DNA of 37,013 bases from a virus (taxonomy: Duplodnaviria > Heunggongvirae > Uroviricota > Caudoviricetes). Positions 3,085-36,700 of the stretch are shown here, piece after piece (positions within the stretch are counted from its first letter, which is position 1; every line of letters starts with the position of its first letter). Under the pieces are notes generated by a model. The model was given only the letters and a program-made list of their open reading frames with translations. It did no database searches and was not told the DNA's origin. Location of the stretch: IMG/VR virus record IMGVR_UViG_2531839666_000012. One strand, 5' to 3'. The position numbers were made by a program, and so were the translations under genes.

Positions 3085-3160
3085 GGCCCTTTAGCTCAGT
3101 GGTGAGAGCGAGCGACTCATAATCGCCAGGTCGCTGGTTCAAATCCAGCAAGGGCCACCA
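3085..3160 (+). tRNA. tRNA-Ile2 (anticodon CAU, lysidine type; ileX/ileZ-like)
   Basis: 76 nt cloverleaf: acceptor GGCCCTT/AAGGGCC, anticodon loop CTCATAA, T-loop TTCAAAT, encoded CCA; near-identical to recalled E. coli ileX. Confidence 0.8.
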
Positions 3161-3167
3161 TCACATA

Positions 3168-3244
3168 CCGCCATTAGCTCATCGGGATAGAGCGCCAGCC
3201 TTCGAAGCTGGTTGCGCGGGGTTCGAGTCCTCGATGGCGGTCCA
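3168..3244 (+). tRNA. tRNA-Arg (anticodon UCG)
   Basis: 77 nt; acceptor CCGCCAT/ATGGCGG, anticodon stem CCAGC/GCTGG with loop CTTCGAA, T-loop TTCGAGT, encoded CCA. Confidence 0.75.
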
Positions 3245-3257
3245 TTATCTGTACACT

Positions 3258-3334
3258 GCGTTGTTAGCTCAGCCGGACAGAGCAATTGCCTTCTAAGCAA
3301 TCGGTCACTGGTTCGAATCCAGTACAACGCACCA
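3258..3334 (+). tRNA. tRNA-Arg (anticodon UCU, argU-like rare-codon tRNA)
   Basis: 77 nt; acceptor GCGTTGT/ACAACGC, anticodon stem ATTGC/GCAAT with loop CTTCTAA, T-loop TTCGAAT, encoded CCA. Confidence 0.8.
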
Positions 3335-4404: not shown

Positions 4405-4660
4405 TGCCCCGAAAATTTTAAATGTCTCACAATTCAGACGGTTGACAGTTGTCTGATTTGCGGGGAGTTTGTTAAAAGAAACTGGCATGGTGAATCCCCC
4501 TGAGCGGAGGGGCATATCAGCGACAGGTGTTTGGTTACATCCCTTATCCTTTCTGTGCGGGTTCAGGTGCTGATACTGAACTCACCGGGAGGCACCCGGC
4601 ACCATGCGCATGATGATACAGATACGCAGCGTCAGCCCCTCTCCGGAGGGGCTTTTCTGT
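4405..4660 (+). repeat. Hairpin-rich noncoding element, copy A (candidate sRNA gene)
   Basis: Shares with copy B a CA-rich box CTCACAATTCAG, TTGACA/TTGAAG -35-like hexamer, GC hairpin CCCCCTGAGCGGAGGGG, box CTGAACTCACCGGGAGGCACCCGGCA and terminator hairpin AGCCCCTCtccgGAGGGGCT+TTTT (4634-4660). Confidence 0.5.
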
Positions 4661-4892
4661 GCCGGATACATCACAGTTTCTGGAACCTTGGGTACTACAG
4701 TATCAGTCAGGGTGCTATATTTTCAGATGTGATGAAAGCCTGTCAGCAGGCAGGGCGTATCGGAAATGACCCAGTAGAGAAAACGTTGACTCAGATACCG
4801 GTGCTGAGTTACCGGGAAACCGGCATCACATGACCGCTATCCTTCCAGGCCCGTCCGCTCCGGTGGGCCTTTTTACTGCAGAAAACAGGTTC

Positions 4893-5148
4893 CCCGTTAA
4901 ATGCTATGTTGCTCACAATTCAGTCAGTTGAAGGTTGTCTTCCCGACTGAGAATTTGTTAAAAAATTTCTGCATGATGAATCCCCCTGTGCGGAGGGGCG
5001 GCTGGTGTACGGTATGGTCTCTGATGATCGTTAGCGAGAATGACGCGGGTTCGGTGGCACCGGGCTGAACTCACCGGGAGGCACCCGGCATCATGCAATG
5101 AACGGTACATAGCGCTACTCCAGCCCCTCTCCGGAGGGGCTTTCTTAT
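4893..5148 (+). repeat. Hairpin-rich noncoding element, copy B (candidate sRNA gene)
   Basis: Paralogue of copy A about 486 bp downstream with the same conserved boxes and terminator hairpin (5122-5148); a minus-strand terminator (GCCCGCAT/ATGCGGGC after an A-run) follows at 5152-5181. Confidence 0.5.
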
Positions 5149-5378
5149 GGATAAAAAAAGCCCGCATGGTGAGATGCGGGCAGCAAGGAATAAACAACAA
5201 AACGTGAAGTAATCAATTTTTCAGCTGGCGAATAATACCCGACAGTAATCACTCTGCGCAACTGCGCGGCCTTTTTCGTATTGCGGGCTGTAGTCTTCCT
5301 TCTGTCATTGTCCTGTAACTTCCGGACTTCAGCCCGCCCCTTATCTGACTCACAACATTATCCCGACCGGGAGGATTC

Positions 5379-6909: not shown

Positions 6910-7236
6910 ATGACTAAAAATACGCGCTTTTCCCCTGAGGTCCGTCAGCGGGCCGTTCGTATGGTTATCGAAAGCCAGAATGACTATGACTCGCAGTGGG
7001 CGGCCATCAGCTCCATCGCCCCTAAAATCGGCTGTACGCCTGAGACCCTGCGTACCTGGCTGCGTCAGTATGAGCGCGATGCCGGTGCAGGTGACGGCGG
7101 ACTGAGCACCACTGAACGTCAGCGTCTGAAGGAACTGGAGCGTGAAAACCGCGAACTGCGCCGCAGCAACGATATCCTGCGCCAGGCTTCCGCGTATTTT
7201 GCGAAGGCGGAGTTCGACCGCCTGTGGAAAAAATAG
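6910..7236 (+). CDS. IS3-family transposase OrfA (HTH/leucine zipper)
   Basis: 108 aa, [19 protein letters not shown]... matches recalled IS629/IS1203 OrfA; ends at an A6 slippery run (7228-7233). Confidence 0.85.
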
Positions 7237-8123
7237 CGCCTCTGGTGGATACCCTGCGTGGTGCGCACGGGGTCGGACCGGTATGCCACGAGCTGGCTGT
7301 CGCCCCGTCAACGTATTACCGGCATCGTGCGCATCAACGGCATCCGGATAAACGCAGTCAGCGGGCACAGCGTGATGACCTGCTGAAGCCGGAGATACAG
7401 CGCGTGTACGATGAAAACCACAGCGTGTACGGTGTGCGCAAGGTCTGGCGCCAGTTGTTGCGTGAGGGGGTGACCGTGGCCAGGTGCACAGTAGAACGGC
7501 TGATGAAGGTGATGGGGCTTGCCGGTGTGCGCCGGGGTAAAAAGGTCCGCACCACAGTCAGCCGGAAAGAAGCCGCTGCGGGTGACCGGGTGAACCGCCA
7601 GTTCGTGGCAGAACGCCCCGACCAGCTGTGGGTGGCTGACTTCACGTATGTGAGCACCTGGCAGGGCTTCGCTTACGTGGCGTTCATCATCGATGTGTTC
7701 GCCGGCGTCATTGTGGGCTGGCGGGTCTCATCGTCGATGAAAACGACGTTCGTGCTGGATGCACTGGAGCAGGCGCTGTGGGCCCGTCGCCCGTCGGGCA
7801 CCATCCATCACTCAGATAAGGGGTCACAATATGTGTCGCTGGCATACACTCAGCGGCTTAAGGATGCAGAGTTGCTGGCGTCAACCGGCAGCACAGGCGA
7901 CTCATATGACAACGCGATGGCGGAGAGCATCAACGGACTTTATAAAGCGGAGGTGATACATCGTAAGAGCTGGAAAAACCGCGCCGAAGTGGAACTGGCC
8001 ACACTGACGTGGGTGGACTGGTACAATAACCGACGGTTGCTGGAACGACTGGGTCATATCCCGCCGGCAGAAGCGGAAAAGGCATATTACGCTTCCATCG
8101 GAAATGGTGGTCTGGCAGCCTGA
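7224..8123 (+). CDS. IS3-family transposase OrfB (DDE catalytic domain)
   Basis: 299 aa in the -1 frame relative to orfA, overlapping its 3' end; likely made as an OrfAB fusion by programmed -1 frameshift. Confidence 0.85.
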
Positions 8124-12806: not shown

Positions 12807-13270
12807 ACCGTGTTCTGTGTGTGGTGATTATTGTCCTGCTGGTGGCCTGTGGTGCGCTTAGTCTGGGGCTGAATCATTACCGCGATAACGCCATCACCTA
12901 CAAAGCGCAGCGCGATAAAAAAGCCAGAGAGCTGGAGCTGGCAAACGCAACCATTACTGATATGCAGGTGCGCCAGCGCGATGTTGCTGCGCTCGATGCA
13001 AAATACTCGAGGGAATTAGCCGATGCGAGAGCTGAAAATGAAACTCTGCGTGCTGATGTTGCCGCTGGTCGTAAGCGCCTGCGGGTTAAAGCCACCTGTC
13101 CAGGCTCCGTGCGTGAAGCCCCCACCACCTCCGGCGTGGATAATGCAACCGGCCCCCGACTGGCAGACACCGCTGAACGGGATTATTTCATCCTCAGAGA
13201 ACGGTTGATGACAATGCAGAAGCAGCTGGAAGGGGCGCAGGAATATATCCGCACTCAGTGTATTAGCTAG
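12803..13270 (+). CDS. Rz: Rz inner-membrane spanin (i-spanin)
   Basis: Closely matches recalled lambda Rz ([16 protein letters not shown]..., [40 protein letters not shown]); N-terminal TM helix. Confidence 0.9.
13038..13208 (+). CDS. Rz1: Rz1 outer-membrane lipoprotein spanin (o-spanin), embedded in Rz in the +1 frame
   Basis: [15 protein letters not shown] lipobox signal then proline-rich [27 protein letters not shown], matching recalled lambda Rz1. Confidence 0.8.
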
Positions 13271-13293
13271 TATTTTTGTTATCCGGAGAATGC

Positions 13294-13518
13294 ATGAAGA
13301 AATTACTGGTAACCGTAAAGTCTTTTCAGGGAACAATTCCGTTCCGTATTTTGCAGTGTGGTCGTGTTCTTGTTGAAGGTTCGTTCAGTGGTAAATGTAC
13401 GCAATTACACTCCCGGACCTTTCAGGTGAATGCCACGAATGAAGAGCTAACCGTTGAGTGTACGATGAATGCCGCTAAATGCCGCATGGTATCCGCTGCA
13501 TTACAGCCAGTGTGTTGA
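13294..13518 (+). CDS. Hypothetical protein (74 aa)
   Basis: ATG 13294 (MKKLLVTVKSF...) with GGAG upstream; no family recognised. Confidence 0.4.
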   Translation: MKKLLVTVKSFQGTIPFRILQCGRVLVEGSFSGKCTQLHSRTFQVNATNEELTVECTMNAAKCRMVSAALQPVC

Positions 13519-13856
13519 GCGACCTTATTATCCATGCGCGGTATTGTCGCCGTATTCCTGCATTAACAGAGACCGCAGCCCGACCGGGAGACTCCTCTGC
13601 GCGAGTGTGCGGGGATAATCAAAAACGATACACACCGGGGTTTACCGCGTTAACGGAGCGCGGCGTTGTCCCCTCATGGTCGCTGGTCCGGTGCGATGGT
13701 GGAAGAAACCGGACGATGTGTTACCTCGCAAGCTCTGTTATGTCATGTGTCTGATTTGTGATTTAAGTCGGATAATTGTCGTTGCCATTAAGCAGAGGAT
13801 TGATGACCGACAGGGTGGCATTGTTAGAATAAGACTTATTCTTATCTGTGCCGGGA

Positions 13857-14189
13857 ATGAAAATGAAAAGAAATCTTCCGTTAATTATTTTGTTGTCTTC
13901 TCTGGTTATGGGCTGTACGCAACATAAAACAGATATGCCCCGACAGTTGGTTAAGGCATTACCACAATATCCGGCCTATGCAGCGGCAAATTATATAAAG
14001 GGACGGGTTGATGTGAAGTTTGATATTGGTGCTGATGGTACTGTCACCCGAATTGAGTTTATCCGTTCAGAGCCGCACCATCTGTTTGATGAGCAGGTTG
14101 TAAAAGCGATGGCAAAATGGCGATTTGAGAAGGACAGGCCGCGTAAAGGCGTGAAGAAAACGTTTATCTTTAGTCCTTCTGCACCCTGA
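13857..14189 (+). CDS. Putative lipoprotein with TonB C-terminal-like domain
   Basis: Signal peptide with lipobox LVMGC; C-terminal region resembles the TonB_C fold (VDVKFDIGADGTVTRIEF...HHLFDEQVVKAMAKWRF); start could be 13848, 13857 or 13863. Confidence 0.5.
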   Translation: MKMKRNLPLIILLSSLVMGCTQHKTDMPRQLVKALPQYPAYAAANYIKGRVDVKFDIGADGTVTRIEFIRSEPHHLFDEQVVKAMAKWRFEKDRPRKGVKKTFIFSPSAP

Positions 14190-14320
14190 TTATTTCATCA
14201 GAAATTAATTATCACTCTGTTGTTATTCTGTACATCCCGGCTGGGTAAGTCTTGTTCCGCCGGGTATGAAGATGAAATATTGTTGGAGGACAGTGGGTAC
14301 CTGCTCCTGTAACCGAACGT

Positions 14321-14521
14321 TCATTTCTCGTTATTTGTCATGCTGGCCGGGCGCAGGTGCGTTGCATCTGTTGCCAGCCTTCTCCGGCAGGCTTCAATAA
14401 CCCACGCTGAAAAGTTACCGGACCCTTTATGCTCAAGGGCGATGTTGATCTGTTCAATCATGTGATTGGGGAAACGGATATTGCGGGTTGTGGTTCTGCG
14501 GGTCCGGTTTTTCGATGACAT
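14321..14521 (-). CDS. YlcI/YnfO-family (DUF3950) small prophage protein
   Basis: MSSKNRTRRTTTRNIRFPN..IEQINIALE.KGSGNFSAWVIEACRRRL matches recalled DLP12 YlcI / Qin YnfO; minus-strand SD AAGGAA. Confidence 0.6.
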   Translation of the reverse strand: MSSKNRTRRTTTRNIRFPNHMIEQINIALEHKGSGNFSAWVIEACRRRLATDATHLRPASMTNNEK

Positions 14522-14562
14522 ATTTATTTCCTTTACTGATTGCCTTATGACGGGGATTTTAC

Positions 14563-14928
14563 ATGGCTGAGCTTCGTACACTCCAGAGCAGAATCAAAAC
14601 ACTGAATACCCGACGGGTGAATATTCTGAAGGGTGAACAGCGTCGTGTCAGTGGCAGTGCACGTGTTTCCCTCAAGCGTCATATCTGGCTCAGGGATGCC
14701 GGGCAGTGCTGTCTCTGTGGTCGTGTGGTTGACCTCTGTGACAGTGAACTCGATCACCGAATTGCACTTCAGTTCGGTGGTGGTAATGAGGAGACGAATC
14801 TCTGGACGCTCTGTACCGAATGCCATCGACAAAAGTCTGCTCGTGAAGCGGCGGGTGGTATGCCGGACCCGACACTGCCGGAGGTGTCCGGAGGTAGTGG
14901 CAGAGCGGACGACATCATCGGACTGTAA
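14563..14928 (+). CDS. HNH endonuclease (packaging-associated)
   Basis: CxxC...DHRIALQFGG..NLWTLCTECH zinc-finger HNH signature; sits directly upstream of the cos region and terminase, as in HK97-like cos phages. Confidence 0.8.
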   Translation: MAELRTLQSRIKTLNTRRVNILKGEQRRVSGSARVSLKRHIWLRDAGQCCLCGRVVDLCDSELDHRIALQFGGGNEETNLWTLCTECHRQKSAREAAGGMPDPTLPEVSGGSGRADDIIGL

Positions 14929-15218: not shown

Positions 15219-15755
15219 GTGCTGACAACGCAAAAACGAAAATTTGCGCTGGCGCTCATGTCCGGGAAAAACAAAACAGCGTCAGCCATTGCCGCCGGTT
15301 ATTCGGCGAAGACAGCCAGGGTTAAAGGCTCGCAGCTGGCAAAAGATCCGGAGGTGCTCGCGTTTATAGCCCGTAAGCAGTGCGAGACGGTAGAGGTGGA
15401 TGAGGTTCCTGTTTACCGGCAGAAAAAATCAGAGCAGGAGGATAAACCCCGTCGCCGTGAGGCGGCTGCAATACCACAGCCGGACGAAACAAATCCGGAG
15501 ATGCCACTGCCCGTGGTGATATCTCCTGGTATTGAGTATATGGATGACGGTCTTCCCGATCCGGTGAAAGCGATGGGGCGTCTTCTGGTGGAGAACATTA
15601 ATACCGACCCCAGGCTGGCGCTGGATGTGGCTTATAAGCTGGCACAGTTCACGCACCACAAAAAAGGGGATGCCGGTAAAAAATCGGCAAAAGGTGACGC
15701 GGCGAAAAAAGCGGCTAACCGTTTTGCGGTGCCACCACCCCCCGACTGGTGGTGA
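15219..15755 (+). CDS. Terminase small subunit
   Basis: GTG 15219 with SD AGGAGG 8 nt upstream; N-terminal region resembles P27-family TerS; directly precedes terL. Confidence 0.65.
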   Translation: MLTTQKRKFALALMSGKNKTASAIAAGYSAKTARVKGSQLAKDPEVLAFIARKQCETVEVDEVPVYRQKKSEQEDKPRRREAAAIPQPDETNPEMPLPVVISPGIEYMDDGLPDPVKAMGRLLVENINTDPRLALDVAYKLAQFTHHKKGDAGKKSAKGDAAKKAANRFAVPPPPDWW

Positions 15756-15777
15756 ATAATGATAATGAGGGCAGCGG

Positions 15778-16083
15778 ATGATACCTGTGTGGAGCACGGC
15801 CTGCCCGGACTGGGCAGAGCGCCTGAAAAAGGGGCTGTCGATTATTCCGGCTCCGATTTACCCGGACCAGGCCGCACATGCCCTGGCGATTTTTAAACAA
15901 CTGCGGATTGTGGATGCACCGGGCAGCCCGACGTTCGGGGAGTCCTGTGCACCGTGGGTGTTTGATCTGGTGGCTGCCCTGTTTGGCTCCTACGATGCGC
16001 AGACCGGTGTACGCCATATAAAGGAAGTGTTCATTCTGATACCCAAAAAAACAGCAAGTCCACGCTGGCTGCCGGGATCATGA
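15778..16083 (+). CDS. Terminase large subunit, N-terminal segment (frame broken at an A7 run)
   Basis: Ends ...ILIPKKTASPRWLPGS*; the -1 frame across the A7 run at 16045-16051 reads the Walker A P-loop NSKSTLAAGIMM... and continues into the next ORF. Confidence 0.8.
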   Translation: MIPVWSTACPDWAERLKKGLSIIPAPIYPDQAAHALAIFKQLRIVDAPGSPTFGESCAPWVFDLVAALFGSYDAQTGVRHIKEVFILIPKKTASPRWLPGS

Positions 16084-17438
16084 TGACGGCGCTGTTACTG
16101 AACTGGCGGCAGGCGGCGGGCTACACCATTCTGGCCCCGACCGTGGAGGTGGCGGCTAATGCCTTCAATCCTGCCAGGGATATGGTACGACGGGACGATG
16201 ATCTGGATGACCTCTGTCAGGTGCAGACACATATCCGGACCATCACCCATCGGGTGACGGACACCACCCTGAAGGTGGTGGCAGCCGATCCGAATACGGT
16301 GTCCGGTATCAAGTCCGTGGGGACACTGATTGATGAACTGTGGCTGTTTGGCAAGCAGTACAAAGCGGAGGACATGTTACGTGAAGCCATAGGTGGCCTT
16401 GCCTCCCGCCCGGAAGGGTTTGTGGTGTATACGACCACCCAGTCGAATGAACCGCCCGCCGGGGTGTTCAGACAGAAACTGCAGTACGCCCGGGATGTGC
16501 GCGACGGCAAAATTCATGATCCGCACTTTCTGCCGGTGATATTTGAGCATCCGCCGGAGATGGTGGAGCGCGGTGAGCACCTGCTGATGGAAAACCTCGC
16601 CATGGTCAATCCGAATCTCGGTTATTCGGTGGATGAGGCTTTTCTGTACCGGGAGTACCGTAAAGCCCGGGAGGCTGGTGAGGAAGCATTTCGTGGCTTC
16701 ATGTCAAAACATGCCAATGTGGAAATTGGTCTTGCCCTGCGTTCTGACCGCTGGACGGGTGCGGATTTCTGGGAGCAGCAGGGCAGGCGCGTCAGCCTGG
16801 ACGATATCCTGCAGCGCGCTGATGTGGTGACGGTGGGGATTGACGGCGGGGGCCTGGATGATCTGCTGGGAATGTACGTGATTGGCCGTGACAGGGAAAC
16901 CCGCGAATGGCTGGGCTGGGGCCATGCCTGGGCGCATGAAACCGCGGTGGTCAGACGGAAGAGTGAGGCATCCCGGTTTCAGGATTTTGTGGCCTGTGGA
17001 GACATGACGATTGTCCGTCGGGTCGGGGATGACACGGCGGAAGTGGCGGAGTATGTGCGTCGTATTCATGAGGCTGAGTTACTGGAGCATATCGGTATTG
17101 ACCCGTCAGGTGTGGGGCAGATTCTGGATTCACTGGTGGAAGCCGGGATCCCCGACGGAATTGTTGTGGGGATAAGCCAGGGCTGGAAGCTGGGCGGGGC
17201 CATAAAAACCACCGAGCGCAAACTGGCTGAGGGAGTACTGGTGCATGGTGGTCAGCCACTGATGGCCTGGTGCGTTGGCAATGCCCGGGTGGAGCCGAAA
17301 GGTAACGCCATCCTTATTACCAAACAGGCCAGCGGACGGGGGAAAATTGACCCGCTGATGGCGCTCTTCAATGCGGTATCCCTGATGTCCCTGAATCCGG
17401 AGCCGAAAAAGAAAGAATATGCGGTTTTTTTCATATAA
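16080..17438 (+). CDS. Terminase large subunit, main segment (ATPase remainder plus nuclease domain)
   Basis: 452 aa continuing the upstream ORF once one A is added at 16045-16051; size and position fit a Terminase_1-type TerL. Confidence 0.8.
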   Translation: MMTALLLNWRQAAGYTILAPTVEVAANAFNPARDMVRRDDDLDDLCQVQTHIRTITHRVTDTTLKVVAADPNTVSGIKSVGTLIDELWLFGKQYKAEDMLREAIGGLASRPEGFVVYTTTQSNEPPAGVFRQKLQYARDVRDGKIHDPHFLPVIFEHPPEMVERGEHLLMENLAMVNPNLGYSVDEAFLYREYRKAREAGEEAFRGFMSKHANVEIGLALRSDRWTGADFWEQQGRRVSLDDILQRADVVTVGIDGGGLDDLLGMYVIGRDRETREWLGWGHAWAHETAVVRRKSEASRFQDFVACGDMTIVRRVGDDTAEVAEYVRRIHEAELLEHIGIDPSGVGQILDSLVEAGIPDGIVVGISQGWKLGGAIKTTERKLAEGVLVHGGQPLMAWCVGNARVEPKGNAILITKQASGRGKIDPLMALFNAVSLMSLNPEPKKKEYAVFFI

Positions 17439-31235: not shown

Positions 31236-31979
31236 ATGACACAGACTGAATCAGCGATTCTGGTGCATGCCCGGCGGTGTGCGCCAGCGGAGTCGTGCGG
31301 CTTCGTGATAAGCACCCCGGAGGGCGAACGGTACCTGCCCTGCGTGAATATCTCCGCAGAGCCGGAGGCGTATTTTCGTATTGCACCGGAAGACTGGCTG
31401 CAGGCACAGATGCAGGGGGAGATTGTGGCGCTGGTCCACAGTCATCCCGGTGGACTGCCCTGGCTGAGCGAGGCTGACCGGCGGCTGCAGATAAAGAGTG
31501 CCCTGCCCTGGTGGCTGGTCTGCCGGGGTGAAATTCACCGGTTCCGCTGTGTGCCGCACCTGACCGGACGGCGCTTTGAACACGGTGTGACGGACTGTTA
31601 CACCCTGTTCCGGGATGCATACCATCTGGCGGGGATAACGCTGCCGGATTTTGTGCGTGAGGATGACTGGTGGCGCAACGGCCAGAACCTGTACCTGGAC
31701 AACCTGGCGGACAACGGCTTTTACCGGGTGTCTCCGTCCTGTGCACAGGCGGGCGATATCCTGCTGTGCTGCTTTGGCGCATCGGTGCCGAATCATGCCG
31801 CCATTTACTGTGGCAACGGTGAACTGCTTCACCATATACCTGAACAACTGAGTAAACGGGAGAGGTATTCTGAAAAATGGCAACGACGAACGCATTCTGT
31901 CTGGCGTCACCGCCACTGGTCCGCATCTGCCTTCACGGGGATTTACAACGATTTGGTCGCCGCATCAGCCTGTATGTGA
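31236..31979 (+). CDS. K: Tail assembly protein K (MPN/JAB plus NlpC/P60-like)
   Basis: MTQTESAIL.HARRCAPAESCGFV.STPEGERY.PCVNIS, VALVHSHPGGLPWLSEADRRLQ and HGVTDCYTLFRDAYHLAGI match recalled lambda gpK. Confidence 0.9.
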   Translation: MTQTESAILVHARRCAPAESCGFVISTPEGERYLPCVNISAEPEAYFRIAPEDWLQAQMQGEIVALVHSHPGGLPWLSEADRRLQIKSALPWWLVCRGEIHRFRCVPHLTGRRFEHGVTDCYTLFRDAYHLAGITLPDFVREDDWWRNGQNLYLDNLADNGFYRVSPSCAQAGDILLCCFGASVPNHAAIYCGNGELLHHIPEQLSKRERYSEKWQRRTHSVWRHRHWSASAFTGIYNDLVAASACM

Positions 31980-32515
31980 ACACGGCAGCGGAGGCCATCC
32001 GTGCCCTGTCGCTGCAGGTGCCGGGATTCCGCTGTCAGATGAACGAAGGATGGTATCAGATACGCATTGCGGGCAGGGATGTATCTGAACAGGAGCTTCA
32101 TTCCAGAGTATGTGAGCCGTTGAATGACGGGGATGTTATCCATCTGGTGCCCCGGACGGAGGGGGCAAAAAACGGCGGTGTTCTTCAGGTGGTGGCCGGT
32201 GCTGTTCTGGCTGTTGTGGGATATGTGTTCAGCTGGACCGGTATTGGTGCTGTCATCGGTAATCTTGGGGTGGCCATGATGGTGGGGGGTATCACGCAGA
32301 TGCTCACCCCCAGGGCGAAAACACCGTCTGCCACGACAACAGATAATGGTAAACGGAACACGTATTTTTCGTCACTGGACAACATGATTGCCCAGGGTAA
32401 CCCGATGCCGGTGCCTTACGGTGAAATGCTGGTTGGTTCACGACGGATATCCCAGGACATCAGCACCCGTGATGAGGGCGGAGACGGGAAAGTGGTGGTT
32501 ATCGGGCGGGGATAA
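31877..32515 (+). CDS. I: Tail assembly protein I
   Basis: LASP...RICL.GDLQRFGRRI, WYQ.RIAGRDVS, TTDNGK.NTYFSSLDNM.AQGN and GEM.VGSR match recalled lambda gpI. Confidence 0.85.
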   Translation: MATTNAFCLASPPLVRICLHGDLQRFGRRISLYVNTAAEAIRALSLQVPGFRCQMNEGWYQIRIAGRDVSEQELHSRVCEPLNDGDVIHLVPRTEGAKNGGVLQVVAGAVLAVVGYVFSWTGIGAVIGNLGVAMMVGGITQMLTPRAKTPSATTTDNGKRNTYFSSLDNMIAQGNPMPVPYGEMLVGSRRISQDISTRDEGGDGKVVVIGRG

Positions 32516-33190
32516 AAATAAAAAATCCCGCAGAGTTAGTGGAGCTGCGGGAAATAACGATGAAGATTAATGTTATGGAGTTATTTCTTTGGGCAGAAAA
32601 ACATTAACGCAGCGAAATTATAAGCGCTACATGGATTTTGCGAAAATGTGAAGAAATTCAGAAATTTTTTGCTGCAGAGGTGCAGGGAGCTTGCCGGGTA
32701 TCTGTGGCAGAAGACAGAAAACATCATGCCGGGGTTAAGGGATAAAAAAATCCCGCAGAGTTAGCGGAGCTGCGGGACAGAACCGATGAAGATTAACGTT
32801 CAAGGAGTTTTGTTTTTATTGACCCGAAAAAACTGTAACGCCCCGGAATGATATCTGCCATGGGGACGCACAGGAAATGTGAAGAAATTCAGACTTTTTC
32901 TGTCGCAGGTTTACAGAACGGATTACCGCCGGGGTACCAGTGGCGTAAATGAGCCGGATGTTGTGGTGCGGCTGAAGCAAAAAAATCTCCCGTAATATCG
33001 CCGGATACTGACGGGAGACGAATAGTCACCTTAAGGAGGTCTGATAATTATTGCTTTTATTGAGCAAAAAAACTGTAACGCTGCATCATTATAGCGGCTA
33101 CAGGCAATTGCCGGAAATGTGAAGAATTTCAGAAATTTTATTCCGTCATGACACAGGCACCCTCCGGGGTGCCTGTTGTTTTTGGGCATA
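32516..33190. repeat. Three tandem sRNA-like modules between I and J
   Basis: Each module has a minus-strand terminator (hairpins 32527-32551, 32752-32776, 32987-33017, with T-runs on the minus strand), a minus-strand -10 hexamer about 70 bp to the right (TATAAT 32617-32622, TATCAT 32848-32853, TATAAT 33088-33093) and a conserved box GGAAATGTGAAGAAATTCAGAAATTTT; a plus-strand terminator lies at 33154-33183. Confidence 0.55.
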
Positions 33191-33226
33191 AACAGATTCA
33201 GACATCAGACAGGAGAGGGGGACAGA

Positions 33227-33923
33227 GTGGGTAAAGGGGGCGGCAAGGGGGCACACACCGCGTGAGGCGAAGGACAATCTCAAATCCACGCAGATGATGA
33301 GCGTGATTGATGCCATTGGTGAGGGACCGGTGGAAGGTCCGGTGAAGGGACTGCAGAGTATTCTGGTGAACAAAACCCCGCTGACGGACACGGACGGTAA
33401 TCCCGTGATACACGGTGTGACCGCCGTCTGGCGCGCCGGGGAGCAGGAGCAGACACCGCCGGAAGGCTTTGAGTCCTCCGGGGCAGAAACCGCACTGGGC
33501 GTGGAGGTGACGAAGGCAAAGCCGGTGACGCGCACCATCACGTCAGCGAACATTGACCGTCTGCGGGTCACCTTCGGGGTACAGTCACTGGTGGAGACCA
33601 CCTCAAAGGGTGACCGTAATCCCTCTTCTGTCCGCCTGCTGATTCAGCTTGAGTGTAACGGGCACTGGGTGACGGAGAAGGATATCACCATTAACGGCAA
33701 GACCACCTCGCAGTACCTGACGTCTGTGATTCTGAATAATCTCCCTGAGCGCCCCTTTAACATCCGGATGGTCAGGGAGACGGCGGACAGCACCACGGAC
33801 CAGCTGCAGAACAGAACGCTGTGGTCGTCATACACCGAAATCATCGATGTGAAACAGTGCTGCCGAACACGGCCATTGTGGGGCTGCAGGTGGATGCGGA
33901 GCAGTTTGGTGGCCAGCAGCTGA
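33227..33923 (+). pseudogene. J: Tail tip / host specificity protein J, N-terminal part (frame disrupted)
   Basis: GTG 33227 with SD AGGAGA reads MGKGGGKGAHTA* and hits a stop after 12 codons; the J-like frame (HTPREAKDNLKSTQ.MSVIDAI...) is +1 from the G5 run at 33247-33251 and shifts again near 33862. Confidence 0.75.
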
Positions 33924-36700
33924 CGGTGAACTACCATATCCGTGGTCGCATCATTCAGGTGCCGTCAAACTATGACCCGGAAAAACGCACCTACAGCGGT
34001 ATCTGGGACGGGAGTCTGAAACCGGCATACAGCAATAACCCGGCCTGGTGCCTGTGGGACATGCTGACCCACCGCGCTACGGGATGGGAAAACGCCTGGG
34101 GGCCGCGGATGTGGACAAGTGGGCACTGTATGCCATCGGGCAGTACTGCGACCAGACGGTCCCGGATGGTTTCGGGGGGCACAGAGCCGCGGATGACTTT
34201 CAATGCGTACCTGTCACAGCAGCGTAAGGTCTGGGATGTTCTGGGGGATTTCTGCTCGGCGATGCGCTGTATGCCGGTATGGAACGGCCAGACGCTGACG
34301 TTCGTTCAGGACCGCCCGTCGGATGTGGTGTGGCCGTACACCAACAGCGATGTGGTGGTGGATGATAACGGCGTGGGGTTCCGCTACAGCTTCAGTGCCC
34401 TGAAGGACCGGCACACGGCGGTGGAGGTGAATTACACCGACCCGCAGAACGGCTGGCAGACTTCCACGGAACTGGTGGAAGACCCGGACGCCATCCTGCG
34501 CTACGGGCGCAATCTGCTGAAGATGGATGCGTTCGGCTGTACCAGCCGCGGTCAGGCCCACCGTGCCGGACTGTGGGTGATAAAGACAGAACTGCTGGAA
34601 ACGCAGACGGTGGATTTCACGCTCGGGTCACAGGGGCTGCGGCACACGCCCGGTGACATCATTGAAATCTGTGATAACGACTACGCCGGGACCCTGACCG
34701 GCGGACGCATCCTGTCCATGGATGCCGCCAGCCGTACCCTGACGCTGGACCGTGAGGTGACACTGCCGGAAGCAGGGACATCGACGGTGAACCTGATTAA
34801 CGGCAGCGGTAAGCCGGTGCGCGTGGACATCACCGCACACCCCGCCCCGGACCGGATACAGGTCAGCGTCCTGCCGGATGGCGTGGAGACATACGGTGTG
34901 TGGGGACTCTCCCTGCCGTCACTGCGTCGTCGCCTGTTCCGCTGTGTTTCCATCCGGGAAAACACGGACGGCACCTTTGCCATCACGGCAGTGCAGCACG
35001 TACCGGAAAAAGAAGCCATCGTGGATAACGGGGCCACCTTTGAGCCGCTCTCCGGTTCACTGAACAGCGTCATCCCGCCGGCTGTGCAGCACCTCACGGT
35101 GGAGGTGAGTGCCTCAGACGGCCAGTATCTGGCGCTGGCGAAATGGGACACGCCGCGGGTGGTGAAGGGCGTGCGCTTCAGTCTGCGCCTGACCAGCGGA
35201 AACGGTGAAAACAGCCGCCTGGTGACCAGCGCCATCACTGCCGACACGGAGCACCGTTTCAGTGGCCTGCCTCTGGGGGAATACACCCTGACGGTCAGGG
35301 CGATAAACAGCTACGGCCAGCAGGGCGAACCTGCCACCACCGCGTTCCGGATTAATGCGCCTGCAGCACCGGCCAGCATTGAACTGACGCCGGGGTATTA
35401 TCAGATAACAGCAGTACCGGTGCTGGCGGTGTATGACCCGACGGTACAGTTTGAGTTCTGGTTCTCGGAGGCAAAAATCGCAGACACATCTCAGGTGGAA
35501 ACCTCTGCCCGTTATCTGGGGACAGGCAGCCAGTGGAGTGTCTCCGGCCCGCACATTAAGCCGGGGAGGGATTTCTGGTTTTATGTGCGCAGCGTCAACC
35601 TGGTGGGGAAATCTGCGTTTGTGGAAGCCAGTGGCCGGGCGAGCAATGATGCGGAAGGGTATCTGGGGCTGTTTCGGGAAAAGATAGGAAAACTGCATCT
35701 GGCACAGGGGATGTGGGAGCTGATTGATAACAGCCAGCTTGACAATGAGATGGCGGAGATGAAGACCACCATCACCGAAACCCGCAATGAAATCACGCAG
35801 ACGGTCAGTAAAACCCTGGAAGACCAGAGCGCCACCATACAGCAGATACAGCGGGTGCAGACAGACACAAATAACGACCTGGCTGCGCTGTACATGCTGA
35901 AGGTGCAGAAAACAAAAAACGGCATTCCGTATGTTGCCGGTATAGGTGCGGGGATTGAGGATGCTGATGGCCAGCCCCTGAGCAATATACTGCTGCAGGC
36001 GGACCGTATCGCGATGATTAACCCGGAGAACGGCAACACCACGCCGCTGTTTGTGGCGCAGGGGAATCAGCTGTTCATGAACGATGTGTTCCTGAAGCGG
36101 TTGTTTGCAGTGAGCATCACCTCGTCCGGCAATCCCCCGACGTTCTCCCTGACGCCGGACGGCAGGCTGACGGCCCGTAATGCTGATATCAGCGGACATA
36201 TCAGTGCGAACTCGGGCACGCTCAATAATGTGACCATTAACCAGAACTGCCGGATACTTGGAAAACTGTCTGCCAACCAGATTGAAGGCGATATTGTTAA
36301 AACCGTGGGGAAGGCTTTCCCGCGGGACTCCCGCGCACCGGAGCGGTGGCCATCGGGGACCATTACCGTCAGGATTTATGACGATCAGCCTTTTGACCGG
36401 CAAATTGTGATCCCGGCAGTGGCTTTCAGCGGCGCTAAACATGAGAGAGAGCATAACGATATTTATTCATCATGCCGGCTGATGGTGAAATGTAACGGCA
36501 GGGTGCTTTTTGAAAGGACGGCGCTGGCTGAGTCTCAGGTGTATTCAGGGGTGATTGATATGCCTGCAGGAAGGGGGCATATGACGCTGGAGTTTTCTGT
36601 GTCTGCCTGGCTGGTGAATGGATGGTACCCGACAGCGAGTATTAGCGATCTGCTGGTTGTCGTGATGAAGAAGTCCACGGCGGGTATCGGTATTTCGTGA
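33821..36700 (+). CDS. J: Tail tip / host specificity protein J, main body
   Basis: 959 aa colinear with recalled lambda gpJ (e.g. [87 protein letters not shown]); contains one internal out-of-frame segment. Confidence 0.85.

What the first reader, a model, noticed from the sequence alone, without database searches (positions are those of the whole stretch)
32516..33226. Three tandem sRNA-like modules between tail genes I and J, antisense to the late operon
Lambda has essentially no spacer between I and J, but here about 700 bp of noncoding DNA holds three paralogous modules. On the minus strand each has a -10 hexamer (TATAAT, TATCAT, TATAAT at 32617-32622, 32848-32853, 33088-33093) at a fixed 66-72 bp from a GC hairpin followed by a T-run (32527-32551, 32752-32776, 32987-33017). 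That predicts three minus-strand transcripts of roughly 80-100 nt, each carrying a CU-rich stretch (AACUCC / CCUCCUUA) that could pair with Shine-Dalgarno sequences. On the plus strand the same modules carry SD-like sequences and TTG-initiated 20-aa ORFs ending in the conserved ATGTGA, so an antisense-RNA/small-ORF (type I toxin-antitoxin-like) arrangement is an alternative, although the peptides are not hydrophobic. I do not recognise this as a described element.
Basis: seen in the sequence. Interest (0 to 1): 0.8.

Follow-up and report, generated by a model that had tools for sequence, protein, structure and literature searches.

The report
Three tandem PasB-type prophage small RNAs

Summary
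The I-J spacer (32516-33226) holds three direct-repeat modules. Each has minus-strand promoter elements and a GC hairpin plus U-run.

They are not a new element. A profile built only from the two experimentally validated loci hits all three modules on the minus strand (E = 3e-36, 3e-28, 6e-22). Those loci are E. coli O157 Sakai Sp15 (EcOnc22, ~85 nt, Hfq-dependent) and EPEC E2348/69 PP6 (PasB, 83 nt, Hfq-dependent, 37 RIL-seq partners). Both lie in the I-J spacer, antisense to the tail genes. The published Northern probes match the window's plus strand.

Modules 1 and 2 are 94% and 92% identical to EcOnc22. Module 3 is a diverged paralogue with its own conserved seed and terminator.

The plus-strand small ORF is not conserved (4 codons or fewer in 43 of 78 variants). 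The toxin-antitoxin reading is rejected.

What seems undescribed:
- Arrays of 2-4 paralogues occur at 19 of 75 related I-J junctions.
- An invariant TGTGA-N6-TCAGA box sits about 60.5 nt upstream of the PasB-type start. This is class I CRP geometry (inferred).

Verdict: a new variant of a known kind, of moderate interest.

The parts
31877..32515 (+). Tail assembly gene I (longest ORF; PGAP start in the nearest genome corresponds to 31934); stop codon at 32513-32515
   Evidence: annotated tail assembly protein I in VT1-Sakai and RefSeq relatives
32520..32594 (-). Predicted sRNA 1 (75 nt), type A; 94% identical to EcOnc22 over 67 nt; open 5' part carries AGAAAUAAC (ARN repeats), AACUCC and UUAAUCUUCAUCG
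32527..32551 (-). Intrinsic terminator hairpin of sRNA 1 (CCCGCAG...CTGCGGG), followed by U-run 32520-32525
32601..32606 (-). TAATGT, the -10-like TAnnnT hexamer found in all 78 variants; 6 nt upstream of the predicted +1 (G at 32594)
   Evidence: PasB 5' end
32617..32622 (-).
32647..32662 (.). Box 1, TGTGA-N6-TCAGA (CRP-like); centre 32654.5, i.e. -60.5 relative to the predicted +1
32663..32743 (.). Inter-module segment A: decayed copy of the J-proximal segment (about 55% identity), ending in GGGATAA, a copy of the I stop-codon context
32744..32825 (-). Predicted sRNA 2 (82 nt), type A variant; 92% identical to EcOnc22 over 72 nt and 82% to PasB; AAUAAAAACAAAAC (ARN x4), ACUCC, GUUAAUCUUCAUCGG
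32752..32776 (-). Terminator hairpin of sRNA 2, followed by U-run 32744-32750
32832..32837 (-).
32878..32893 (.). Box 2, TGTGA-N6-TCAGA (CRP-like)
32894..32978 (.). Inter-module segment B, a second decayed copy of the J-proximal segment
32979..33065 (-). Predicted sRNA 3 (87 nt), type B paralogue: seed CCUCCUUAAGGUGACUAUUCGU, ARN x5 at the 5' end, and a different, longer terminator
32987..33017 (-). Terminator hairpin of sRNA 3 (CUCCCGU...ACGGGAG), followed by U-run 32979-32985
33072..33077 (-).
33118..33133 (.). Box 3, TGTGA-N6-TCAGA (CRP-like)
33153..33185 (+). Plus-strand terminator-like hairpin plus T-run just upstream of J. It is conserved in single-module loci, and an analogous hairpin sits in the module-free 60-nt spacer of L188, so it probably predates the sRNA insertion
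33227..36700 (+). Tail tip / host specificity gene J. Here it is frameshifted: an extra G in the run 33246-33250, and a second frame change near 33821-33923

Best explanation
The I-J spacer carries three tandem, independently transcribed small-RNA genes of the PasB / EcOnc22-24 family. Each module is a self-contained 'RNA moron' on the strand opposite the late operon.

Each module has the following parts:
- a weak -35;
- a TAnnnT -10;
- a start about 6 nt further on;
- an A-rich (ARN-repeat) leader;
- an open seed region with anti-Shine-Dalgarno (CUCC) and anti-start-codon (CAU) elements;
- a GC hairpin with a 6-7 U tail.

The predicted products are 75, 82 and 87 nt.

Shown for homologues: the RNA is made from the prophage in lysogens, is stabilised by Hfq, and forms Hfq-dependent chimeras with many core and accessory mRNAs.

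Inferred here: all three copies are expressed and act in trans by base pairing at ribosome-binding sites. Modules 1 and 2 share one seed type (GUUAAUCUUCAUCG). Module 3 has a different conserved seed (CCUCCUUAAGGUGACUAUUCGU), so the array would broaden the target range.

Also inferred: transcription is activated by cAMP-CRP. An invariant TGTGA-N6-TCAGA box is centred about 60.5 nt upstream of the start, which is class I geometry.

The array arose by duplication of the whole spacer unit. The I stop-codon context is repeated at the junctions. sRNA alleles were later exchanged by recombination between prophages.
For: Homology to validated loci
- A profile built only from the two validated loci finds the three modules on the minus strand at E = 3e-36, 3e-28 and 6e-22. 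The EcOnc22 body aligns at 94% (module 1) and 92% (module 2).
- PasB maps to the E2348/69 I-J spacer, antisense. It is 83 nt, Northern-verified, strongly reduced in delta-hfq, with 37 interactions.
- EcOnc22/23/24 are about 85 nt, Hfq-crosslinked and destabilised in delta-hfq. The Sakai Sp15 I-J spacer carries the same module.
- Both Northern probes match the window's plus strand.

Architecture
- Folds show an open 5' region plus a terminator.
- Across 165 modules (78 unique), the box, the TAnnnT hexamer at a fixed 48 nt (74 of 78; 47 or 49 in the rest), the seed blocks and the terminator stems are kept. Module-to-module identity of the inter-module segments in this window is only about 55%.
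- Type B keeps a 21-nt invariant seed across sub-variants whose 5' parts differ.

Arrays and moron status
- Arrays of 2-4 modules occur at 19 of 75 I-anchored junctions.
- One relative has no module. Others carry sodC at the same site.

CRP
- PasB is higher in overnight static LB than in DMEM. The CRP-repressed sRNA Spf behaves the opposite way.
Against: - No expression data exist for this window's own copies, nor, in what I could read, for any type B module.
- Module 3's RNA body is not alignable to PasB or EcOnc22 by BLAST.
- The distal half-site of the box is TCAGA in every variant and never the consensus TCACA. That may point to a different protein or to selection for weak binding.
- The box centre is 1-2 bp off the canonical -61.5.
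- The PasB 5' end comes from RNA-seq coverage, not 5' end mapping, so processing of a longer transcript from the TATAAT hexamer is not excluded.
- Between the window and L052, the inter-module segments are as conserved as the genes. Orthologue comparison therefore gives no purifying-selection signal.
- Targets and phenotype of the family are unknown in the literature I could read.
Confidence: 0.8

Rival explanations
1. Only one copy is a working sRNA gene, most likely module 1 or 2. The others are decaying duplicates left by unequal recombination between prophage I-J spacers, with no function of their own.
For: - Single-module spacers are the norm (55 of 75).
- Module 3's body has diverged to about 56-62% from modules 1 and 2.
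- Module 2 folds no better than shuffled sequence (z = -1.5).
- The prophage looks degraded: J is frameshifted.
Against: - Every module keeps the box, the TAnnnT hexamer at the exact spacing, an open seed and an intact terminator with a U-run. The module-to-module identity of the segments between them is only about 55%.
- Type B is not a one-off wreck. The same seed and terminator recur in many loci and in 39 complete E. coli genomes, with pairing-preserving changes.
- Four-module arrays with the same order of types recur in 9 loci.
Confidence: 0.12
2. The RNAs act mainly in cis. They are perfectly complementary to the I-J part of the late polycistronic mRNA. Either they direct RNase III cleavage that uncouples J and downstream genes from the late operon, or the abundant late mRNA sponges them on induction.
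For: - The genes lie inside the late operon on the opposite strand.
- Three copies triple the complementary stretch.
- A plus-strand hairpin/T-run precedes J.
Against: - The RNAs overlap neither the I coding region nor the J ribosome-binding site. sRNA 1 ends 4 nt after the I stop, and sRNA 3 starts 160 nt before J. Translation cannot therefore be occluded.
- PasB forms Hfq-dependent chimeras with 37 partners, including core-genome mRNAs, in uninduced cells.
- The family seeds vary by allele replacement while the flanks stay the same. This is expected for trans targets, not for a cis partner that co-varies automatically.
Confidence: 0.05
3. The modules encode plus-strand small proteins (TTG or ATG start, ending at the conserved ATGTGA) controlled by the antisense RNA, as in a type I toxin-antitoxin pair.
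For: Plus-strand ORFs of 20-23 codons exist in modules 1 and 3, with SD-like sequences upstream.
Against: - In 78 unique family members, the frame ending at that TGA is 4 codons or fewer in 43.
- Otherwise it ranges from 14 to 47 codons with unrelated start points.
- Single-base indels between near-identical variants change the frame.
- The peptides are not hydrophobic.
- The conserved ATGTGA is the TGTGA half-site of the promoter box.
Confidence: 0.02

Closest known systems
PasB (pathogenicity-associated sRNA B) of EPEC E2348/69 prophage PP6 (Pearl Mizrahi et al. 2021, PMC8550237; Zhu, Shabalina & Storz 2026, bioRxiv 10.64898/2026.05.13.724894)
   Same: - Same locus (I-J spacer) and same antisense orientation.
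- Same promoter box, -10 spacing and terminator stem CCCGCAG/CTGCGGG.
- Same seed block AUCUUCAU just upstream of the terminator.
- 74-78% identity of the RNA body to modules 1 and 2.
   Different: - PasB is a single gene.
- The 2026 survey used word size 28 and over 75% query cover. It reports the closest two pasB copies as 28 kb apart and describes Pas copies as not arising by tandem duplication. Here there are three copies within 550 bp.
- Module 3 has another seed and terminator.
EcOnc22 / EcOnc23 / EcOnc24 of E. coli O157:H7 Sakai prophages Sp15 (Stx1), Sp14 and Sp11 (Tree et al. 2014, PMC4104026)
   Same: - Closest sequence relatives of modules 1 and 2 (94% and 92%).
- Same place and strand.
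- About 85 nt, Hfq-bound and Hfq-stabilised.
   Different: - One module per prophage in Sakai.
- Function untested.
- The texts I could read do not link EcOnc22-24 to PasB. PasB has no EHEC-homologue note in Table S6, and 'EcOnc' does not occur in the 2026 preprint.
HnrS (EcOnc10-12), AgvB and AsxR: other prophage-borne Hfq sRNAs of EHEC
   Same: - Short, terminator-ended, Hfq-associated RNAs carried as cargo in lambdoid prophages and expressed in lysogens.
- HnrS blocks a ribosome-binding site (hha) and shares the octamer UAAUCUUC with the type A seed.
   Different: - Different loci. HnrS lies between the lysis genes and terminase. AgvB and AsxR lie at the PR' moron site.
- No sequence homology to the modules beyond the octamer.
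Tandem paralogous sRNA genes: OmrA/OmrB (E. coli), PrrF1/PrrF2 (Pseudomonas). From my own knowledge; both are named as the contrast case in the 2026 preprint.
   Same: Adjacent duplicated sRNA genes, each with its own promoter and terminator, with partly diverged pairing regions.
   Different: - Those are chromosomal core genes with two copies and shared seeds.
- Here there are 2-4 copies inside a phage late operon, with seed types that differ and are exchanged between prophages.
Morons of lambdoid phages (Juhala et al. 2000; from my own knowledge, cited in PMC4104026)
   Same: An autonomous promoter-gene-terminator unit inserted between two genes of a late operon. It is absent from some relatives, and the same site is used by other cargo (sodC).
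   Different: The cargo is RNA rather than protein. It is transcribed against the operon and is present as a multi-copy array.

Membership tests
PasB / EcOnc22-24 prophage sRNA family | Sequence homology to the experimentally validated members | tested here: met
   A profile from Sakai Sp15 plus EPEC PP6 only gives E = 3e-36, 3e-28 and 6e-22 on the minus strand. RNA bodies of modules 1 and 2 are 94% and 92% identical to EcOnc22. Module 3 matches through the promoter part and architecture only.
PasB / EcOnc22-24 prophage sRNA family | Location in the spacer between tail genes I and J, on the strand opposite to them | tested here: met
   The published probes match the plus strand.
PasB / EcOnc22-24 prophage sRNA family | Own promoter and intrinsic terminator giving an RNA of about 83-85 nt | tested here: met
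   By sequence only. The TAnnnT hexamer, start and hairpin plus U-run predict 75, 82 and 87 nt.
PasB / EcOnc22-24 prophage sRNA family | Transcript detected, bound and stabilised by Hfq | not testable with these tools
   Published for the homologues only (PMC8550237, PMC4104026).
Class I CRP-dependent promoter | A TGTGA-N6-TCACA-type site | tested here: met
   TGTGA-N6-TCAGA (9 of 10 core positions, with AAA/TTT flanks). It is invariant in all 78 unique modules, while the N6 varies.
Class I CRP-dependent promoter | Site centred near -61.5 (lac-type), with a weak -35 | tested here: inconclusive
   The centre is 48.5 nt before the -10 hexamer (49.5 in lac, from my own knowledge). That is -60.5 if +1 is the G homologous to PasB's second base, and -59.5 with the listed PasB 5' end. 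The 5' end comes from RNA-seq coverage.
Class I CRP-dependent promoter | cAMP-CRP binding and activation | not testable with these tools
   Only circumstantial. PasB is high in overnight LB and low in DMEM, the opposite of CRP-repressed Spf.
Type I toxin-antitoxin system | Conserved small (usually hydrophobic) ORF opposite the antisense RNA | tested here: not met
   The frame is 4 codons or fewer in 43 of 78 variants. Lengths range from 1 to 47 codons, and the peptides are not hydrophobic.
Any Rfam 15 family | Score at or above the gathering threshold | tested here: not met
   No match in 32300-33400. The best sub-threshold hits are chance-level at 16-18 bits.
Moron (autonomous insert in a phage late operon) | Own promoter and terminator; present or absent among otherwise collinear relatives | tested here: met
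   L188 has a 60-nt I-J spacer without a module. Relatives have 1 to 4 modules. sodC occupies the same site in others.
Hfq class II-like sRNA (ARN repeats plus U-tail) | At least 3 consecutive A-R-N triplets in the 5' part, and a terminator U-tail | tested here: met
   Read from the sequence: AGA-AAU-AAC (sRNA 1), AAU-AAA-AAC-AAA (sRNA 2), AAU-AAA-AGC-AAU-AAU (sRNA 3), with 6-7 U tails. Binding faces on Hfq were not tested.

The most novel reading that the evidence does not exclude
The I-J junction of Stx-type lambdoid prophages may be an expandable cassette array of sRNA genes. On this reading, 1 to 4 paralogues share one catabolite-sensing (CRP class I) promoter design but carry swappable seeds exchanged between co-resident prophages. 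A lysogen's post-transcriptional 'conversion' programme would then be tuned by array composition. Because every cassette is perfectly complementary to the late mRNA, prophage induction would sponge all of the RNAs at once and release their host targets.
Probability: 0.15. Interest if true: 0.7.

Novelty: new variant of a known kind. Interest (0 to 1): 0.45.

Why it matters
PasB and EcOnc22-24 are among the abundant Hfq partners in EPEC and EHEC, yet they have no known function or regulator.

This analysis adds the following:
- It links the two names to one family.
- It shows that the family has at least three seed types.
- It shows that prophages often stack 2-4 of them in one spacer. BLAST surveys with long words would have missed this.
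- It gives a concrete, cheap hypothesis for regulation: cAMP-CRP acting at a conserved box with lac-like spacing.
- It relocates the likely -10 and start.

Together these make the family directly testable, by delta-crp or glucose Northern blots, paralogue-specific deletions and RIL-seq in an array-carrying STEC strain. Copy-number and allele differences in this spacer could also contribute to the strain-to-strain differences in Hfq-dependent virulence regulation noted for EHEC.

Tried and rejected
- **Rfam.** Rfam at gathering and at E up to 10 gave nothing real in the spacer.
- **HnrS.** I suspected that HnrS (EcOnc10-12) was the same element. It lies between Rz and terminase in Sakai Sp12 and Sp10, not in the I-J spacer, and its body is not in the window.
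- **Small ORF / toxin-antitoxin.** Rejected on conservation.
- **RNAalifold.** On 20 diverse RNA bodies it gave no consensus structure, because MAFFT misaligns the type A and type B terminators. I relied instead on single-sequence folds and on visible stem conservation with loop replacement.
- **Self-targets in the window.** A search for seed-complementary 10-mers elsewhere in the window found only about the number I estimate by chance; no shuffle control was run.
- **Expression evidence for type B.** I looked in Sakai. Sp12 has a 341-nt single-module spacer and Sp10 has sodC, so neither holds an array and there is no such evidence.
- **EcOnc22 coordinates.** The listed coordinates (old Sakai record) fall about 128 nt from the module in the current record, which is 128 bp longer overall. 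I did not verify the local shift. I rest the strand and position assignment on the Northern probe sequence.
- **Species-representative genomes.** The scan with the box pattern gave mostly chance hits. True modules were found only in E. albertii and on tiny contigs of non-enteric assemblies.
Full report
**1. The observation**

The window is a lambdoid, Stx-phage-like E. coli prophage. Gene I ends at 32515 and J starts with GTG at 33227. BLAST places the flanks on 'tail assembly protein I' and 'host specificity protein J' of VT1-Sakai and many Stx phages.

The 711-bp spacer contains three direct-repeat modules with start-to-start spacing of 231 and 240 bp. The 18-nt core AATGTGAAGANNTTCAGA occurs three times, against 0.02 expected by chance.

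**2. What it is**

Rfam 15 has no family for it, but the literature does.

- *EHEC.* Table S2 of Tree et al. 2014 (PMC4104026) lists EcOnc22 (Sakai prophage Sp15), EcOnc23 (Sp14) and EcOnc24 (Sp11). They are one Hfq-crosslinked RNA of about 85 nt that is destabilised without Hfq. Its Northern probe, GGGAGAGAACGATGAAGATTAAC..., matches the window's plus strand at 32556-32570 and 32784-32797.
- *EPEC.* Table S6 of Pearl Mizrahi et al. 2021 (PMC8550237) lists PasB of EPEC E2348/69. It is 83 nt, at minus-strand coordinates 1466343 to 1466261, with probe AATCCCGCAGTGATCGCGGAGCT and 37 RIL-seq interactions. It drops strongly in delta-hfq: log2 fold change -6.8 and -2.4 in the two conditions.
- *Position.* I fetched both loci. 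In Sakai the I-J spacer of Sp15 carries one module. In E2348/69, PasB lies exactly between I and gpJ, on the opposite strand.
- *Homology.* The five modules align at 72% mean column identity. A profile built only from the two published loci finds all three window modules on the minus strand at E = 3e-36, 3e-28 and 6e-22. The EcOnc22 body aligns at 94% to module 1 and 92% to module 2. Module 3's RNA body is too diverged for BLAST, but it keeps the promoter part and the architecture.

The element is a known sRNA family whose function is still unknown.

**3. Family-wide anatomy**

An exact-pattern scan of IMG/VR gave 120 loci. A profile search of these gave 165 modules, 78 of them unique, with 57 distinct RNA bodies. 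Four results follow.

(a) *Box and -10.*
- Every unique module keeps TCTGA-N6-TCACA (RNA sense), which is TGTGA-N6-TCAGA on the plus strand, while the six central bases vary.
- Every one has a TAnnnT hexamer starting 48 nt after the box centre (74 of 78; 47 or 49 nt in the other four).
It is absent or poor in 12.
- The listed PasB 5' end lies 5-6 nt after the conserved TAnnnT, not after TATAAT.
- I therefore place the starts at 32594, 32825 and 33065 and the ends at 32520, 32744 and 32979. This gives RNAs of 75, 82 and 87 nt.

(b) *CRP geometry.* With those starts the box is centred at about -60.5, and the -35 region is weak (GTGGCA/GTAGCC-like). From established knowledge, this is the layout of a class I CRP-dependent promoter (consensus TGTGA-N6-TCACA, lac site at -61.5). 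It is an inference. Circumstantial support: PasB is higher in overnight static LB than in mid-log DMEM, whereas the CRP-repressed Spf is about five-fold higher in DMEM. Against it: the distal half-site is TCAGA in all variants, and the spacing is 1-2 bp off. Neither the 2021 paper's passages nor the 2026 preprint discusses a promoter or CRP.

(c) *RNA architecture.* The RNAs have an A-rich leader with 3-5 consecutive A-R-N triplets, an open seed and a terminator with 6-7 U. This is the pattern of Hfq-dependent sRNAs. At least three seed types exist:
- type A (…AACUCC…GUUAAUCUUCAU…), as in modules 1 and 2, PasB and EcOnc22;
- type B (CUCCUUAAGGUGACUAUUCGU, with its own terminator), as in module 3;
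- type C (GUUAGUCAACAUCG), seen in four-module arrays.

The type A block coincides with the seed proposed for PasB by Zhu et al.. Type A is complementary to AUGAAGAUUAA-like initiation regions. Type B is complementary to UAAGGAGG.

(d) *Small ORF.* The plus-strand ORF ending in ATGTGA is not conserved. It is 4 codons or fewer in 43 of 78 variants and otherwise 14 to 47 codons. The conserved ATGTGA is simply the TGTGA half-site. The toxin-antitoxin alternative is rejected.

**4. The tandem arrangement**

In a sample anchored on protein I rather than on the module, 75 junctions could be measured. Of these, 55 have one module, 9 have two, 1 has three, 9 have four and 1 has none.

The module-free relative (L188) has a 60-nt spacer holding only a plus-strand hairpin plus T-run, analogous to the one at 33153-33185 here. 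The sRNA unit is therefore an insertion, a moron-like element. Other prophages carry sodC at the same site.

About 90 of 5,426 complete E. coli genomes hold at least 80% of this three-module stretch. Type B is present at full length in 39. RefSeq annotates nothing in the spacer.

The junctions repeat the I stop-codon context (GGGATAA). The inter-module segments are about 55% identical relics of the J-proximal segment. The repeat unit is thus the whole spacer.

Comparison with a second three-module array (L052) shows mosaicism. Flanks and inter-module DNA are 95-100% identical, but the sRNA 1 body is only 74% identical because it carries a different seed allele. The sRNA 2 terminator loop is replaced while its stem is kept.

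The 2026 survey of Pas sRNAs used word size 28 and over 75% query cover. It reports the closest pasB copies as 28 kb apart and states that Pas copies did not arise by tandem duplication. The arrays therefore appear to be undescribed. Neither source I read links PasB with EcOnc22-24.

An exact-pattern scan of one genome per species found true modules only in Escherichia (E. albertii) and on tiny contigs of unrelated assemblies that look like contamination.

**5. Mechanism and rivals**

*Best explanation (confidence 0.8 for 'PasB-family sRNA genes', lower for the details).* The spacer holds three autonomous sRNA genes expressed from the prophage, Hfq-dependent, acting in trans at ribosome-binding sites. 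There are two seed specificities. Transcription is probably CRP-activated.

- Shown, for homologues only: transcript, size, strand, Hfq dependence, many RNA partners.
- Inferred: expression of each copy here, the starts, CRP control, and target type.

*Rivals.*
- Only one copy is functional (0.12). This is disfavoured by the intact promoter geometry and terminators in all copies and by the recurrence of type B elsewhere.
- Mainly cis action on the late mRNA (0.05). The RNAs overlap neither the I coding region nor the J RBS, and PasB has many trans partners.
- Small ORF / toxin-antitoxin (0.02). Refuted.

**6. Verdict**

The finding is real and the reading was largely correct, but the element is a published sRNA family. 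The tandem, seed-diversified array, the conserved CRP-like box with fixed spacing, the revised -10 and start, and the PasB = EcOnc22-24 link are modest new points.

Novelty: new variant of a known kind. Interest: 0.45.

Noticed in passing
window 33227-36700: Gene J is disrupted. An extra G in the run 33246-33250 shifts the frame 7 codons after the GTG start; L052 and Sakai have one G fewer. A second frame change lies near 33821-33923. The nearest RefSeq genome also flags gpJ as frameshifted, so the prophage is probably tail-defective.
   Followed up: partly
window 4456-4662 and 4942-5152 (+): Two copies of STnc100 (Rfam RF02076; 135 and 168 bits), the sRNA that Zhu et al. relate to PasD. They lie downstream of three tRNA genes (3085-3334: Met-CAT, Arg-TCG, Arg-TCT), a typical Stx-phage moron region.
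   Followed up: no
window 5151-5261: The Northern probe for EcOnc08/21/42 (Tree et al. 2014) matches the plus strand at 5231-5261 (30 of 31 nt). A weak profile hit to the PasB-type terminator lies at 5230-5151 on the minus strand. This is probably a convergent minus-strand sRNA next to STnc100.
   Followed up: no
window 7191-7307 (+): ALIL pseudoknot (RF01497, 95 bits), the frameshift element of an IS3-family insertion sequence. An IS element therefore sits in the prophage.
   Followed up: no
window 33153-33185 (+); L188 3136-3197: A plus-strand intrinsic-terminator-like hairpin with T-run lies directly upstream of J, inside the late operon. An analogous hairpin is present in the module-free 60-nt I-J spacer of a lambda-like relative. 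Its role is unknown; it may be read through by Q-modified polymerase or may insulate J in lysogens.
   Followed up: partly
L199 3181-4033; L208 (Sakai Sp10) 15484-16336: In some prophages the I-J spacer carries a minus-strand Cu/Zn superoxide dismutase gene (sodC) next to a PasB-like terminator and seed remnant. The junction is thus a general cargo insertion site.
   Followed up: partly
L124 (Sakai Sp12) about 1370-1440; window 13207-14568: HnrS (EcOnc10) lies between the lysis genes and terminase in Sakai. The homologous region of the window lacks the HnrS body. The HnrS seed AAUAAUCUUCUAC shares UAAUCUUC with the type A seed GUUAAUCUUCAUC of the PasB family. This could be coincidence or shared targets.
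   Followed up: partly
window 32520-32594 versus L052: Between two otherwise 95-100% identical three-module arrays, only the body of sRNA 1 is swapped for another allele (74% identity, different seed). This suggests cassette-like recombination confined to the RNA.
   Followed up: partly
L216, L227, L210: PasB-type modules occur on very small contigs of assemblies labelled Parendozoicomonas haliclonae (460 bp), Streptomyces flavalbus (3.4 kb) and Asaia platycodi (546 bp). This is most likely E. coli or phage contamination of those assemblies.
   Followed up: no
L183 3181-3524; L207 (Sakai Sp12) 13304-13644: A 341-342-nt variant of the spacer has one module. In L183 (the one read) the usual J-proximal segment is replaced by unrelated sequence holding another strong hairpin (AAACCCCGGTATC...GATACCGGGGTTT). 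It was not characterised.
   Followed up: no
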